From NCBI RefSeq assembly GCF_030695525.1, contig NZ_JAUYSS010000019.1, positions 15,323 to 79,322 on the forward strand: 64,000 nucleotides of DNA, read 5' to 3'. The notes under the pieces are model-generated. The model worked only from the letters and a program-made list of their open reading frames with translations, was not told the origin of the DNA and made no database searches. The position numbers and the translations under genes are program-made. Numbering within the stretch: the first letter of the stretch is position 1; the number at the start of each line of letters is the position of its first letter. The DNA comes from Daejeonella sp. (lineage in GTDB: Bacteria > Bacteroidota > Bacteroidia > Sphingobacteriales > Sphingobacteriaceae). This document shows, in pieces, positions 26,801-58,015 of this stretch.

Positions 26801-28149
26801 GAACTCTGGAAGTTGTCCTGGGCCGTTCGGGTGAATTCCGTATTGTTGAGCCGGGAACCAAAAAAATGATCATGTCAAACAATATCCCTTATGGTGCATT
26901 TTTGTTTGTTAAGGATGGAGCCAAAATTTCTAAAGGCGACAAGATTTGTAGTTGGGATCCATATAATGCGGTTATTATCTCCGAGTTTGAGGGTAAGGCT
27001 GAATTTGAGGCTATCATAGAAGGTGTTACCTTCCGTGAAGAATCAGATGAGCAAACCGGACACAGAGAAAAGGTGATTATTGATACCCGTGATAAGACCA
27101 AGAATCCGGTTATCCGTGTTGCGGATAAAAAAGGTAATGGTTTAAAAGGTTATAACATTCCAGTAGGTGCACACATTGCAGTTGAAGAAAATGAGAAAGT
27201 GAAAATCGGACAAATTATTGCAAAGATTCCGCGTTCTACAGGAAAAACAAGGGATATTACAGGTGGTTTGCCAAGGGTAACTGAGTTATTTGAGGCTCGT
27301 AATCCATCAAATCCTGCAGTTGTGACCGAAATTGATGGTGTTGTAACCTTAGGTGGTGTAAAACGTGGTAATCGTGAAATGTCTATTGAGTCAAAAGACG
27401 GACAGATTAAGAAATATCTGGTTCCATTATCAAAGCACATTCTTGTACAGGATAATGACTTTGTGAAAGCCGGTATGCCATTGTCTGACGGTTCAATTTC
27501 GCCTGCCGATATCCTTTCAATTAAAGGGCCAGCGGCAGTTCAGGAGTACCTGGTTAATGGTATTCAGGAAGTTTACCGTTTGCAGGGGGTGAAGATTAAC
27601 GATAAACACTTTGAAACCATCGTTCACCAGATGATGCAGAAAGTGATGATCGAGGATGCAGGCGATACCCGTTTTCTTGAAAAAGAGCTTGTTGACCGTT
27701 GGGATTTCCAACTGGAAAATGATGAGATCTATGATAAGAAAGTTGTTACTGAGCCCGGAGATTCTACAAACCTGAAGGCAGGACAAATCATTTCTGTACG
27801 TAAGCTAAGAGACGAGAACTCGGTTCTTAAACGTAAGGATATGAAACTTGTTGAAACCCGCGATGCAATCGCCGCAACATCAAGTCAGATGCTCCAGGGT
27901 ATTACCCGTGCATCATTGGGTACTAAGTCATTCATTTCGGCAGCTTCTTTCCAGGAAACTACCAAGGTGTTGAATGAGGCTGCTATCAGTGGTAAACGTG
28001 ATAACCTGCTGGGTCTGAAAGAAAACGTAATTGTAGGTCACCTGATCCCTTCCGGAACAGGATTGAGACAGTACGAACGTATCATTGTTGGTTCTCAGGA
28101 AGAATACGATAAATTGATGGCTTCAAAATTAGAAGAAGCAGAAGCTTAA
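23863..28149 (+). CDS. rpoC: RNA polymerase beta' subunit
   Basis: Zn finger CHCGK...CDRCG; [12 protein letters not shown]; [23 protein letters not shown]. Confidence 0.99.
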
Positions 28150-28183
28150 AAGCTGAAAGCATAAAGCTAAAAGGCGAAAGCTG
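28149..28183 (+). repeat. Heptamer array (AAAGCNN x5) starting on the rpoC stop codon
   Basis: AAAGCTG AAAGCAT AAAGCTA AAAGGCG AAAGCTG. Confidence 0.75.
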
Positions 28184-28192
28184 GATACAATA

Positions 28193-28224
28193 AAAAAAGT
28201 CCTCTCGGTTGAGAGGACTTTTTT
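28193..28224 (+). terminator. Intrinsic terminator of rpoBC
   Basis: AAAAAAGTCCTCTC-GGTT-GAGAGGACTTTTTT. Confidence 0.9.
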
Positions 28225-28264
28225 ATTTAATAAAATTTGATTGTAGAATTTATAACTTTATGGT

Positions 28265-28579
28265 ATGGAAGAGCAAAACATAGAAAATCAGTTAAATATT
28301 GAACTTTCTGAGGAAATTGCAGAAGGTATTTACTCCAATCTGGCTGTGATAACCCATTCAAACTCGGAATTTGTACTTGACTTTATCAGGGTAATGCCAG
28401 GTGTTCCAAAGGCAAGGGTAAAGTCAAGAATAGTATTAACTCCCGAACATGCCAAGCGTTTTATGATTGCCCTTGAAGAGAATATTGAAAAATTTGAGGC
28501 GCAAAACGGCAGAATCAAGATCAATGCAGAGCAACCCGGATTTCCAATGAACTTTGGTGGTCCAACAGCACAGGCCTGA
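28265..28579 (+). CDS. DUF3467 family protein
   Basis: AEGIYSNLAVITHSNSEFVLDF...SRIVLTPEHAKR; usual position after rpoC in Bacteroidota. Confidence 0.9.
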   Translation: MEEQNIENQLNIELSEEIAEGIYSNLAVITHSNSEFVLDFIRVMPGVPKARVKSRIVLTPEHAKRFMIALEENIEKFEAQNGRIKINAEQPGFPMNFGGPTAQA

Positions 28580-56641: not shown

Positions 56642-56816
56642 CTTTGAATGTTCAGAATATGTTGTAAATATTATTGATCTGTGGATATTATGCTGGTTAA
56701 AGGCATTTATTTAATCAAAGGTATGAAAATTGAGCTATTTTAGGATAATCATGAGGTTTAAGCTAATTCATGCTGATTGAAGAATCCCTGGTGTCCGGTC
56801 AAAAGGTTTTGTGCAT

Positions 56817-56926
56817 CGACCATGAAGGTGGTCGTATATTTATAGAAAAGACATGAAAACCTTGTTCCCCGACCCAAGGGGTCGTATGTGTTTTTTTTCT
56901 ATAAACATTTGACCCCTTCAGGGTCA
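56817..56926. repeat. REP-like cluster of three hairpin+tail units
   Basis: CGACCATGAAGGTGGTCG-TATATTTATAGAAAA (56817-56849); CGACCCAAGGGGTCG-TATG (56870-56888); inverted unit 56895-56926 is 27/33 identical to the first. Confidence 0.75.
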
Positions 56927-57057
56927 GTATTTATAATTCCAAGTTGTAGGAGTAATCGTCATGACATTGAACCTGTAAGATTAAGCCAATCTGTCTTTTG
57001 TGATTGAAGAATAATGCTTTTTTTCTTCAGGGAGTGAATTTTATGTTATTTTAGGAT

Positions 57058-57978
57058 ATGGAACCCAATCTTACAAATTATAAAGACCTTCAGGATTTTG
57101 GAAATCTGGAACTGCTTTCAAGGCAGGTGGTTGAGGGTTTTATAACGGGTCTGCATAAAAGCCCTTTTCATGGTTTTTCGGTTGAATTTGCTGAACACAG
57201 GCTTTACAATACGGGGGATTCGGTAAAGAATGTAGATTGGAAACTCTTTGGGCGGACGGATAAATTATTTGTGAAGCGTTTTGAGGAAGAAACAAATTTG
57301 CGTTGTCAGGTTGTTCTGGATGTGTCATCTTCGATGTATTATCCCGAAATGGATTTTAACAAATTATTGTTTTCTGTTTATTCGGCAGCCTCTTTAATGT
57401 ACCTGTTTAAAAAACAGCGGGATGCCTTTGGTCTCAGTCTATTCTCTGATAAACTGGAACTGACAACAGCAGCTAAATCTACTGCAGTACATCAAAAGTA
57501 TTTGTTTTCAGAGCTCGAGAGTTTAATGAACAGAAAGGGCAGGGACAGTCGTACGGCTGTAGCATCTGCTTTGCACCAGATAGCAGAACTGATTCACAAG
57601 CGTTCTCTGGTTATTATTTTTAGTGATATGCTGGTCGGAGAATCTGAAGATGGCCTATCAGAGATATTTTCAGCCTTGCAGCATCTCAAACACAATAAAC
57701 ATGAGATAATTATCTTCAATGTCCTGGATCATAAAATGGAGATGGACTTTAATTTTGACAACCGTCCTTATCATTTTATCGATATTGAAAACGGAGAAGA
57801 GCTAAAAGTGCATCCCAATAATGTAAAGGAAGCTTATATAGCCGCTTTTGATACTTATCACAAAGAACTGAAACTGAAGTGTGCCCAGTATAAAATTGAT
57901 CTGATTGATGCGGATATTCATGATGGCTTTTATCAGGTATTACATTCGTATTTGATTAAGAGATCTAAAATGAGTTGA
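57058..57978 (+). CDS. DUF58 domain protein (vWA-like MoxR partner)
   Basis: GLHKSPFHGFSVEFAEHRLY..GD..K.VDWK; EEETNL; LDVSSSM; IIFSD. Confidence 0.92.
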   Translation: MEPNLTNYKDLQDFGNLELLSRQVVEGFITGLHKSPFHGFSVEFAEHRLYNTGDSVKNVDWKLFGRTDKLFVKRFEEETNLRCQVVLDVSSSMYYPEMDFNKLLFSVYSAASLMYLFKKQRDAFGLSLFSDKLELTTAAKSTAVHQKYLFSELESLMNRKGRDSRTAVASALHQIAELIHKRSLVIIFSDMLVGESEDGLSEIFSALQHLKHNKHEIIIFNVLDHKMEMDFNFDNRPYHFIDIENGEELKVHPNNVKEAYIAAFDTYHKELKLKCAQYKIDLIDADIHDGFYQVLHSYLIKRSKMS

Positions 57979-58015
57979 TAGTTGATAGTTGACAATTGAC
58001 AGTTGATAATTGGAA
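57974..58015 (+). repeat. Heptamer array (RTTGAYA x6) containing the DUF58 stop codon
   Basis: GTTGATA GTTGATA GTTGACA ATTGACA GTTGATA ATTGGAA; TGA at 57976-57978 lies in unit 1. Confidence 0.85.

What the first reader, a model, noticed from the sequence alone, without database searches (positions are those of the whole stretch)
28149..58015. Stop-codon-anchored heptamer arrays of several different sequence families
Independent 7-mer variant arrays begin on or within a few nt of the stop codon of the upstream gene: rpoC (AAAGCNN x5, 28149), hslR (RTTGAYA, 35373), MATE (RTKGARA x5, 45151), hipA (TCTGTTR, 45350 on minus) and DUF58 (RTTGAYA x6, 57974), in addition to nusG and rpoB. The period is constant at 7 while the sequence differs by family, and some positions are fixed and others free within a family, unlike slippage microsatellites. 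The anchoring suggests insertion targeted to gene 3' ends, or selection for a post-termination role. E. coli REPs close to stop codons are known to affect translation, but no such role is known to me for these arrays.
Basis: partly seen in the sequence, partly recalled or inferred. Interest (0 to 1): 0.62.

Follow-up and report, generated by a model that had tools for sequence, protein, structure and literature searches.

The report
Stop-codon-anchored heptamer repeat arrays
Hundreds of fast-changing 7-base tandem repeats in this Daejeonella genome start at stop codons in one fixed orientation; this is a new example of a known, unexplained bacterial repeat class, and here it is tied to small hairpin cassettes carrying a four-helix-bundle gene.

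Summary
Observation confirmed. All five named arrays, plus those at nusG and rpoB and one more at 35644-35751 (minus strand), abut or overlap a stop codon. Genome-wide, intergenic period-7 arrays are about 15 times more common than in shuffled DNA. Some 121 array edges lie within -10..+3 nt of a stop, against 44.6 +/- 5.3 expected.

Arrays at stops are C-poor on the mRNA strand (G>C in 143, G<C in 20). Arrays at start codons are G-poor (44:5). Arrays in mid-spacer show no bias. Each family has 4-5 fixed and 1-3 free positions.

This matches the heptamer repeats of Xanthomonas and Nostoc (Rehm 2015) and cyanobacterial STRR, so it is a new member of a known kind with no proven function.

I found no support for a post-termination role: no excess of stop codons beyond composition, no unusual RNA structure, and no link to terminators.

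Close relatives carry arrays at the same stops, but with different copy numbers and even different families.

Inverted pairs form stop-to-start hairpins. At least six of the eight PF05635 (23S rRNA IVP) matches sit in such loops. PF05635 copy number tracks array abundance across 251 Bacteroidota genomes (rho 0.58). This suggests many arrays are arms or relics of IVS-like cassettes.

The parts
28142..28184 (+). AAAGCNN array (about 6 units). The rpoC stop codon TAA (28147-28149) and the last codons lie in its first unit.
   Evidence: Present with 1-unit differences in G045, G049 and G024. Absent in relatives about 80% identical.
28192..28225 (+). Intrinsic terminator hairpin plus T-run downstream of the rpoC array. 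It is context, not part of the array.
   Evidence: stem GTCCTCTC/GAGAGGAC, whole stretch z = -5.35. The array part is unpaired in the centroid structure.
35374..35424 (+). RTTGAYA array directly after the hslR-like stop (35371-35373). It is interrupted by the in-phase 14-nt palindrome CCGATAT|CTATCGG (35403-35416) and ends with TTGACAA.
   Evidence: In 6 of the 8 closest relatives an array sits at the same stop, with different units and a different stop codon.
35644..35751 (-). AAGGANN / CAAGARC arrays after the stop (35754-35756) of the minus-strand metallophosphoesterase gene.
45145..45186 (+). TKGAGAR array after the MATE stop TGA (45142-45144).
   Evidence: z = -0.37, no structure. G045 and G024 have the same family with other unit orders and a different stop codon (TAG).
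45311..45347 (-). TTGTCTG/TTATCTG array (5.5 units) directly after the hipA stop TAG (45348-45350).
   Evidence: only about 2 units in G045; z = +1.59.
57972..58015 (+). RTTGAYA array (6 units). The DUF58 stop TGA (57976-57978) lies in its first unit.
   Evidence: G045 has GGRAATR units and G024 has mixed TTGAYA/TKGAGA units at the same stop.
17565..17636 (+). Inverted pair of TACGTTN-type heptamer arms from the nusG stop (17562-17564) onward. The left arm is C-poor and the right arm is G-poor.
   Evidence: hairpin, z = -3.39. G049 has GTATTGA arms at the same site.
23781..23852 (+). Inverted pair of heptamer arms filling the rpoB-rpoC spacer, from the rpoB stop (23778-23780) to about 10 nt before the rpoC ATG (23863).
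   Evidence: z = -5.37. The same architecture occurs in 38 genomes of the genus, with at least 7 arm families.

Best explanation
What they are: these are hypervariable heptanucleotide tandem arrays of the class already known as STRR in cyanobacteria and as heptameric long SSRs in Xanthomonas and Nostoc.

Shown here:
- They occupy the untranslated margins of genes and start within one unit of the stop codon.
- They obey a strand rule. The mRNA strand is C-poor behind stops and G-poor ahead of start codons, and unbiased in mid-spacer.
- Between species about 88-90% identical they change copy number in 7-nt steps, and are even replaced by another family, while their position stays the same.
- Inverted pairs form hairpins that run from a stop codon to the next start codon.
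- PF05635 (23S rRNA IVP, four-helix-bundle) genes sit in the loops of such hairpins and are swapped together with their arms.

Inferred:
- The arrays are built and remodelled by 7-nt slippage or duplication and by cassette exchange.
- They persist only where, and in the orientation in which, they are harmless in the transcript. A likely reason is that a C-rich, G-poor untranslated stretch behind a stop would load Rho, and a G-rich stretch ahead of a start would hinder SD-independent initiation.
- Many single arrays are one arm, or the leftover arm, of IVS-like hairpin cassettes.
- They are probably not a dedicated post-termination device.
For: Excess and anchoring.

Strand rule:
- Within 10 nt of a stop in same-direction spacers, 85 sense against 6 antisense (binomial p = 6e-19). 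Beyond 30 nt, 60 against 50 (p = 0.39).
- Composition at stops is C 8%, G 27%. At starts it is G 6%, C 24%.

Turnover at fixed sites:
- hslR and rpoC.
- All window genes compared in three syntenic relatives.
- The rpoB-rpoC spacer in 38 genomes, with at least 7 co-varying arm families.

The 7-nt periodicity extends into the stop codon (0.49 identity at +7, against about 0.28 baseline) and into the last two codons.

PF05635 link:
- The gene has 8 matches in this genome. At least six of them lie between inverted heptamer arms that run from a stop to the next start or stop, each with a different arm family.
- At one junction, the three IVP allele classes match the arm family in 21 of 21 genomes but are scattered on the host tree: 9 changes, against a shuffled mean of 9.0.
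- Hosts with flanks 91-96% identical carry IVP alleles only 63-67% identical.
- At three sites where G018 or G024 has a cassette, this genome has gene-less arrays. At one of these it keeps the orthologous right arm as a solo arm.
- Across 251 Bacteroidota genomes, PF05635 copies and heptamer pattern hits correlate with rho = 0.58. Genomes with no copy (n = 45) have a median of 1 hit; genomes with 10 or more copies (n = 49) have a median of 77.

Prior description of the same polarity and stop proximity: PMC4692102.

A Rho gene is present in this genome.
Against: - Only 26 of 173 stop-anchored arrays have an inverted partner within 150 nt. The relic-arm reading therefore covers most arrays by inference only.
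- Two genomes are rich in arrays yet lack PF05635 (G212 with 337 hits, G230 with 135). Two genomes with 8 or more copies have fewer than 10 hits.
- The correlation is not corrected for phylogeny. It uses a proxy pattern (TGA or AGT every 7 nt). I copied the counts by hand from the tool tables.
- Slippage alone cannot remove a pre-existing spacer, so exact abutment to the stop is not explained by filtering alone.
- The Rho and translation-initiation rationale for the strand rule is untested here, because no RNA data were available.
- Within-class IVP divergence equals flank divergence, so there is no sign of recent spread.
- Gene calls come from my own simple ORF caller.
Confidence: 0.55

Rival explanations
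1. Selected 3'-UTR device. The arrays would act after translation termination, as backup stop codons in all frames, as a spacer keeping downstream structure away from the terminating ribosome, or as a Rho-blind stretch that lets RNA polymerase reach the real terminator or the next cistron.
For: - Exact anchoring at stops.
- The C-poor sense strand, even for arrays that lie fully outside the ORF: 39 against 4.
- Persistence of an array at the same stop across species.
- The rpoC array lies between the stop and an intrinsic terminator.
Against: - Stop content equals that of composition-matched controls (47% against 45% with all three frames closed).
- MFE per nt equals that of array-less post-stop stretches (p = 0.71).
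- There is no enrichment of terminators.
- About 95% of genes have no stop-anchored array, and relatives of rpoC about 80% identical do without one.
- Sequence family is not conserved at a site.
Confidence: 0.2
2. Plain neutral microsatellites. Seven-nucleotide slippage would be the dominant indel mode, arrays would sit where constraint is lowest, and the PF05635 genes would merely accumulate in the same permissive spacers.
For: - Heptamers are the commonest long SSR in many bacteria (Mrazek 2007, as summarised in PMC4679880).
- Copy-number differences of whole units between relatives.
- Array-rich genomes without PF05635 exist.
- A Y1-transposase element uses a site that holds an IVP cassette in a relative.
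Against: - About a dozen families recur at tens of loci and in other genera, instead of one private unit per locus.
- Fixed and free positions are the same across loci.
- Orientation is 85 against 6 at stops.
- Both arms of hairpins switch family in concert.
- There is a dose-response relation with PF05635.
Confidence: 0.15
3. Binding-site arrays. Each unit (a 4-5-nt fixed core plus 2-3 free positions) would be a site for a multimeric RNA- or DNA-binding protein, such as the PF05635 protein (the closest solved structure, 2GSC, holds five chains), a cold-shock or S1 domain protein, or a HutP/TRAP-like reader of spaced triplets.
For: - The core/spacer pattern within units.
- Arm family tracks the IVP allele class at the C70 junction (21 of 21) and at the C67 junction (3 of 3).
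- The closest solved structure, 2GSC, is deposited with five chains.
Against: - The allele/arm match is equally explained by co-inheritance of a cassette.
- Seven to eight PF05635 genes would have to serve about 12 families and about 370 arrays.
- No binding data exist.
- Families drift into one another by point changes (TTGAYA, TKGAGA, GGRAAT at one site).
Confidence: 0.1
4. A transposase-driven miniature element (MITE- or REP-like) that targets stop codons.
For: - Many copies at gene 3' ends.
- Some inverted arms.
- Y1 transposase genes are present.
Against: - There are no defined ends and no target-site duplication.
- Length varies in 7-nt steps.
- Single arms do not fold.
- Only 15% of arrays have a partner.
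- The Y1 genes are flanked by a different, GC-rich hairpin repeat.
Confidence: 0.05

Closest known systems
G-rich heptameric SSRs of Xanthomonas (GGGAATC) and Nostoc (GGGGAYT), Rehm et al. 2015, PMC4692102
   Same: - 7-nt tandem units with fixed and variable positions.
- Strong intergenic excess, with few between divergent genes.
- The G-rich strand is the sense strand within 50 bp of the stop or overlapping it, and the antisense strand just upstream of ORFs.
- Occasional inverted pairs.
- Function unknown.
   Different: - The units here have no G-tracts, so no quadruplex is possible.
- About a dozen unrelated families coexist in one genome.
- The shared property is C-avoidance rather than G-runs.
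- A link to PF05635 genes was not reported there. However, the closest solved structure to an IVP of this genome is XCC0516 of X. campestris.
STRR (short tandemly repeated repetitive) heptamers of heterocystous cyanobacteria (Mazel et al. 1990; cited in PMC4692102)
   Same: Several heptamer families per genome, tandem, non-coding, function unknown. One family here (CAACAGA) resembles STRR3 as I recall it (from memory, not checked).
   Different: A different phylum. Stop-codon anchoring and the strand rule were not part of the original STRR description, as far as the papers I could read show.
TAACTGA direct repeats of marine Beggiatoaceae, some cyanobacteria and five Bacteroidetes (MacGregor 2015, PMC4679880)
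   Same: Intergenic heptamer arrays in a fixed orientation relative to genes. Some overlap stop codons because the unit closes all frames. Other heptamers were noted in Gramella, Aequorivita and Elizabethkingia spacers.
   Different: Those arrays are one family, placed mainly directly upstream of start codons. Here the main class lies behind stop codons and there are many families.
23S rRNA intervening sequences carrying an S23p/IVP ORF (for example Coxiella burnetii, PMC4990558)
   Same: A long-stemmed hairpin with a PF05635 gene in its loop, regarded as a selfish element (listing). Here at least six such genes lie in heptamer-armed hairpins.
   Different: Here the hairpins lie between protein-coding genes, from stop codon to start codon, and not in rRNA helices. 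Their stems are built of heptamer repeats. Processing by RNase III is not shown.
REP/BIME elements of enterobacteria
   Same: Abundant short repeats behind stop codons, transcribed with the upstream gene.
   Different: REPs are imperfect palindromes mobilised by RAYT. The single arrays here are not palindromic and do not fold. The Y1 transposase genes of this genome go with another repeat.

Membership tests
Heptanucleotide long SSR / STRR-like arrays | Head-to-tail units of 7 nt, far more frequent than chance | tested here: met
   378 period-7 rows in spacers against 25.8 in dinucleotide shuffles. TGA-N4 x4 pattern: 238 hits at period 7 against 1-28 at periods 5, 6, 8, 9 and 10.
Heptanucleotide long SSR / STRR-like arrays | Non-coding location | tested here: met
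   411 of 535 period-7 loci are mostly intergenic, although only 14% of the genome is intergenic.
Heptanucleotide long SSR / STRR-like arrays | Copy-number change in whole units between close relatives | tested here: met
   hipA has 5.5 units against about 2. rpoC differs by +/- 1 unit. The hslR array varies in unit number among the closest relatives.
Rehm-type heptamers (Xanthomonas/Nostoc) | G-rich strand is the sense strand next to stops and the antisense strand next to starts | tested here: met
   143:20 at stops and 5:44 at starts.
Rehm-type heptamers (Xanthomonas/Nostoc) | G-tracts able to form a quadruplex | tested here: not met
   The units TTGAYAR, TKGAGAR, GAGATRT, AAAGCNN and GTATTGA have no runs of three or more G.
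Intrinsic terminator | GC-rich hairpin followed by a U-run | tested here: not met
   Single arrays fold no better than shuffles (z from -1.4 to +1.6). Terminator-like sites occur within 220 nt in 17% of array genes against 20% of others.
REP/BIME | Imperfect palindrome unit | tested here: not met
REP/BIME | Cognate RAYT transposase | tested here: inconclusive
   Six PF01797 matches exist. The one examined is flanked by a different hairpin repeat.
MITE | Defined terminal inverted repeats and target-site duplication | tested here: not met
   Orthologous sites differ by unit number and family, with no constant ends.
IVS-like hairpin cassette with PF05635 gene | Long hairpin with a PF05635 ORF in the loop | tested here: met
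   Met for at least six loci elsewhere in the genome and for 14 loci in G018 and G024. Not met for the five arrays named in the finding, which have no ORF and no partner arm.
IVS-like hairpin cassette with PF05635 gene | Located in 23S rRNA and excised by RNase III | not testable with these tools
   The loci here lie between protein genes.
Contingency-locus SSR (phase variation) | Repeat in a promoter or the 5' part of a coding region, so that copy number switches the gene | tested here: not met
   The arrays lie behind the stop codon or in frame-independent spacers.
Known RNA families (Rfam 15) | Match at gathering score | tested here: not met
   Only five tRNAs are found in the window.

The most novel reading that the evidence does not exclude
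The bacterial heptamer repeats (STRR, Xanthomonas GGGAATC, and these arrays) would be the arms and relics of one widespread class of IVS-like hairpin cassettes.

The loaded form of such a cassette carries a PF05635 four-helix-bundle gene. The cassettes lodge between a stop codon and the next start codon. They fold the insert out of the mRNA with a C-poor 5' arm and a G-poor 3' arm, and they are exchanged as arm-plus-gene units.

A bolder version is that the PF05635 protein reads or maintains its own arm family.
Probability: 0.3. Interest if true: 0.8.

Novelty: new member of a known kind. Interest (0 to 1): 0.5.

Why it matters
Heptamer repeats have been noted in bacterial genomes since 1990 and still have no accepted origin or function.

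This genome gives a clean, quantified case. It has about 370 arrays in about a dozen families. It shows a strict strand rule tied to gene boundaries. It also shows family replacement at fixed sites between close species.

If the link to PF05635 cassettes holds after phylogenetic correction, it turns an old descriptive puzzle into testable experiments:
- delete or express the small gene;
- flip an array;
- inhibit Rho or RNase III.

It would also explain why PF05635 genes of unknown function are so numerous in Bacteroidota.

For annotation, the arrays matter because they supply the stop codon and the last residues of many proteins, and because they break short-read assemblies.

Tried and rejected
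1. Backup stops: frames closed by the arrays equal those of column-permuted controls.
2. Unstructured spacer: MFE per nt is the same as in other post-stop stretches.
3. Terminator association: none.
4. Array growth until it meets the ORF: slippage adds units inside an array and cannot erase a spacer, so I dropped this as the sole cause of abutment.
5. Nucleation from the gene's own end: partly seen. The rpoC end GAAGCTTAA resembles the unit, and the DUF58 end GAGTTGA resembles the unit. Periodicity extends into the stop and the last two codons. It cannot explain the same families recurring at tens of unrelated genes.
6. Recent horizontal sweep of IVP cassettes: within-class nucleotide identity (0.82) is no higher than that of the flanks (0.80-0.82; Wilcoxon p = 0.39).
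7. MITE or REP membership: not met.
8. Rfam: no family matches the arrays.
10. Literature: I found no paper that links PF05635 to heptamer repeats. One search failed on a formatting rule.
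Full report
**Source and setting.** The window is C73:15323-79322 of a 4.2-Mb, 39.5% GC, 73-contig genome. The closest public records to its hslR-like gene are Daejeonella MAGs of the Sphingobacteriaceae.

**The observation in the window.** Reading the sequence shows the following.
- rpoC: stop TAA at 28147-28149 lies inside the first unit of an AAAGCNN array (28142-28184).
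- hslR-like gene: stop at 35371-35373, followed at once by TTGACAG TTGATAG TTGACAA TTGGACA.
- MATE: stop at 45142-45144, followed by TKGAGAR units.
- hipA (minus strand): stop at 45348-45350, followed by TTGTCTG units (45311-45347).
- DUF58: stop TGA at 57976-57978 lies inside an RTTGAYA array (57972-58015).
- nusG and rpoB are followed by inverted pairs of TACGTTN-type arms.

Eight of about 50 gene ends in the window carry such an array.

**Is it more than chance?** I called genes with a simple codon-usage ORF finder (3274 genes, 86% coding) and ran TRF on the whole genome.
- Period 7 dominates, with 535 merged loci against 99 for period 6 and 220 for period 8. Of these, 411 are mostly intergenic.
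- In intergenic DNA there are 378 period-7 rows against 25.8 in dinucleotide-preserving shuffles. Period 8 gives 128 against 29.
- Of 371 arrays assigned to a spacer, 132 have an edge within 3 nt of a stop codon or overlapping it.
- In the -10..+3 window there are 121, against 44.6 +/- 5.3 (maximum 62) for random placement within the same spacers.
- The result holds for confident genes: 6.4% of genes of at least 900 nt carry a stop-anchored array.
- Per kilobase, arrays are commonest between convergent genes and rarest between divergent ones.

**Families and fixed or free positions.** About a dozen families recur at tens of loci. They include TKGANAR (TTGAYAR plus TKGAGAR), GTATTGA, TTGTAAG/TACGTTN, GAGGTMT, GAGATRT, AAAGCNN, TTGTCTG, CAAGARC and AAGGANN. 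Within each family, 4-5 positions are at least 90% fixed and 1-3 have entropy above 1 bit, at the same positions across loci. It is not unprecedented, because Rehm et al. describe (GGGANTN)n in the same terms.

**The strand rule.** This is the most informative result.
- Arrays within 10 nt of a stop are C-poor on the gene's sense strand: A 38%, G 27%, T 27%, C 8%. G exceeds C in 143 arrays and C exceeds G in 20.
- Arrays within 15 nt of a start codon are G-poor: G 6%, C 24%. C exceeds G in 44 arrays and G exceeds C in 5.
- Arrays far from both boundaries are unbiased.
- In same-direction spacers the purine-rich strand is sense in 85 of 91 arrays within 10 nt of the stop, but in only 60 of 110 beyond 30 nt (binomial p = 6e-19 and 0.39).
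- The bias also holds for arrays that lie wholly outside the ORF (39 against 4), so it is not forced by the need to supply a stop codon.
- The same families occur in both orientations, depending on which gene boundary they touch.

**Tests of a post-termination role.**
- All three frames are closed in 47% of stop-anchored arrays, against 45% when the columns of each unit are permuted. The many TGA and TAA triplets therefore follow from composition.
- Predicted folding energy per nucleotide equals that of the post-stop stretches of array-less genes (-0.082 against -0.080, p = 0.71).
- The single arrays of the window fold no better than shuffles (z from -1.4 to +1.6).
- A terminator-like hairpin plus T-run occurs within 220 nt in 17% of array-bearing gene ends, against 20% of the others.
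- No Rfam family matches the arrays.

**Comparison with relatives.** The arrays are widespread. The pattern TGA-N4 repeated four times is found in 36 of 41 relatives and in 217 of 251 Bacteroidota genomes, with counts from 0 to more than 500.

Three genomes about 88-90% identical are syntenic over the whole window. At ordinary gene ends their downstream sequence is alignable. At array sites it is not.
- hipA has 5.5 units here and about 2 in G045.
- MATE keeps the family but shuffles the units and changes the stop codon.
- DUF58 has TTGAYAR here, GGRAATR in G045 and a mixture in G024.
- The nusG element has TACGTTN arms here, TAAGTTR in G045 and G024, and GTATTGA in G049.
- The hslR-like gene keeps its conserved ...GWFD end, while the stop codon (TAA, TAG or TGA) and 0-1 extra residues come from the array.
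- rpoC has an array in relatives down to about 82% identity. The clade about 80% identical has only 22 nt between stop and terminator.

The 7-nt periodicity extends into the stop codon (identity 0.49 at +7, baseline about 0.28) and into the last two codons (0.37-0.40). In a sizeable minority of cases the end of the protein is therefore array-encoded.

**Hairpin forms.** The rpoB-rpoC spacer is 78-113 nt in all 38 genomes of the genus I could read. It always consists of a C-poor arm starting at the rpoB stop and a G-poor arm ending about 10 nt before the rpoC ATG. At least seven arm families occur, and the two arms change together. Even array-poor genomes have a hairpin there. The window copies fold well (z = -5.4 and -3.4). 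However, only 26 of 173 stop-anchored arrays have an inverted partner within 150 nt. Most arrays, including the five of this finding, are single arms.

**The PF05635 lead.** Earlier notes of this scan suggested that such hairpins can enclose a "23S rRNA intervening-sequence protein" gene. I tested this here.
- PF05635 has 8 matches in this genome. At least six lie between inverted heptamer arms that start at the upstream stop codon and end at the next start or stop codon. Each has a different arm family.
- At the junction on contig C70, the cassette is present in nearly all genomes of the genus.
- Its three IVP allele classes match the arm family without exception. Class b goes with GAGATRT; classes a and c go with GTATTGA-like units, in 21 genomes.
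- The classes are scattered over the tree of the flanking genes: 9 changes, against a shuffled mean of 9.0. On the IVP tree they need 2 changes.
- Hosts whose flanks are 91-96% identical can carry IVP alleles only 63-67% identical.
- Within a class, IVP divergence equals flank divergence (0.82 against 0.80-0.82).
- The classes are therefore old and are swapped as arm-plus-gene units, with breakpoints close to the arms. They have not spread recently.
- At a second junction (C67) the same holds for three genomes.
- At three sites where G018 or G024 has a cassette, this genome has gene-less arrays in the same spacer. At one of these the orthologous right arm survives as a solo arm next to the start codon.
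- The arm families of the roughly 20 cassettes seen in three genomes cover nearly all families of the single arrays.

**Genome-level association.**
- PF05635 copy number and the heptamer pattern count correlate in 41 relatives (rho = 0.68).
- They also correlate in 251 Bacteroidota genomes at least 90% complete (rho = 0.58, p = 5e-24).
- The relation rises steadily. Median hits are 1, 19.5, 30.5, 39 and 77 for 0, 1-2, 3-5, 6-9 and 10 or more copies.
- There are exceptions. Two array-rich genomes have no PF05635, and two genomes with 8 or more copies have fewer than 10 hits.
- The test is not corrected for phylogeny, uses a proxy pattern, and rests on counts I copied by hand from the tool tables.
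- The closest solved structure to one IVP is XCC0516 of Xanthomonas campestris (2GSC, five chains). That is the species whose heptamers Rehm et al. studied.
- I found no paper that links PF05635 to heptamer repeats.

**What is known.**
- Rehm et al. 2015 (PMC4692102) reported the following for Xanthomonas GGGAATC and Nostoc GGGGAYT repeats: intergenic excess; scarcity between divergent genes; the G-rich strand on the sense side within 50 bp of the stop or overlapping it; the opposite orientation upstream of ORFs; inverted pairs; and no clear function.
- MacGregor 2015 (PMC4679880) described TAACTGA arrays mostly upstream of start codons, and noted other heptamers in Bacteroidetes spacers.
- Mrazek 2007 found heptamers to be the commonest long SSR. 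STRR heptamers of Calothrix date from 1990. Both are cited in those papers.

The present arrays are therefore a new member of a known kind. They differ in lacking G-tracts, in the number of coexisting families, and in the documented tie to PF05635 cassettes.

**Most likely mechanism.**
- Shown: the position, polarity, turnover, hairpin forms, cassette association and cassette swapping described above.
- Inferred: arrays arise and change by 7-nt slippage or duplication and by exchange of cassettes. They survive only in untranslated gene margins and only in the orientation that is harmless in the transcript.
- The most economical reason for the polarity is as follows. A C-rich, G-poor, untranslated stretch directly behind a stop codon is what Rho loads on, and a Rho gene is present. 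A G-rich leader would hinder the SD-independent, A-rich initiation regions of Bacteroidota. This is established knowledge of Rho and of Bacteroidota translation, not tested here.
- In hairpin cassettes the 5' arm stays unpaired until the 3' arm is transcribed. That would demand the same polarity. Single arms would inherit it if they are half or decayed cassettes.
- Unexplained: why the unit is 7 nt; why abutment to the stop is so exact; and whether PF05635 proteins act on the arms.
- I give this combined reading 0.55.
- The rivals are: a selected post-termination or anti-Rho device, 0.2; purely neutral microsatellites, 0.15; binding-site arrays, 0.1; and a transposase-driven MITE, 0.05.

**Limits.**
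- Gene calls are my own.
- TRF boundaries are fuzzy by about one unit.
- The genome-level correlation is uncorrected for phylogeny.
- No RNA or population data could be used.

Noticed in passing
window 35403-35416; about 40 copies genome-wide: The 14-nt palindrome CCGATAG|CTATCGG (two head-to-head heptamers that keep the 7-nt phase) is embedded in arrays of many different families. It is flanked on both sides by units of the host array.
   Followed up: partly
G000 contigs C14 (three copies), C24, C40, C66: A longer repeat carrying the same palindrome (...tcagaCCCGATAGCTATCGGGttgcgaatttacc...) occurs in at least six near-identical copies.
   Followed up: no
G000 C67:104713-105912: A Y1 transposase (PF01797, RAYT/IS200-like) gene flanked by GCCCTGAAGGGGCG-type hairpins occupies the intergenic site that holds a PF05635 cassette with AATTACG arms in relative G024. 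The same spacer is used by different selfish elements.
   Followed up: partly
G000 C52 16395 and 19757; C16 27803; C70 about 48320; hslR loci of relatives L001 and L005: A GTCATCCCGACGCAGGAGGGATC-type hairpin repeat often follows heptamer arrays.
   Followed up: no
window 23781-23852, and the rpoB-rpoC spacer of 38 genus genomes: A hairpin from the rpoB stop to just before the rpoC start is conserved across the genus, while its arm sequence switches among at least 7 heptamer families. This is strong structural conservation with full sequence turnover.
   Followed up: yes
window 45348-46990 (minus strand): hipA (HipA_C plus Couple_hipA) with an upstream HTH_3 gene forms a HipBA-type toxin-antitoxin pair.
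   Followed up: no
window 14861-15372 and 16734-16804: A cluster of five tRNA genes, with 8-nt-period repeats (15029-15142) between two of them.
   Followed up: no
genome-wide: Period-8 arrays are also about 4-fold above shuffled spacers (128 against 29). 23 of their 124 stop flanks lie within 3 nt of the stop.
   Followed up: partly
PDB 2GSC: The closest solved structure to a PF05635 protein of this genome is XCC0516 of Xanthomonas campestris. That species' GGGAATC heptamers show the same stop-proximal polarity.
   Followed up: no
window 53900-54453: 9-nt-period TGATTAATA-type repeats bracket a small gene. They are the subject of another note on this genome and differ from the heptamer arrays.
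   Followed up: no
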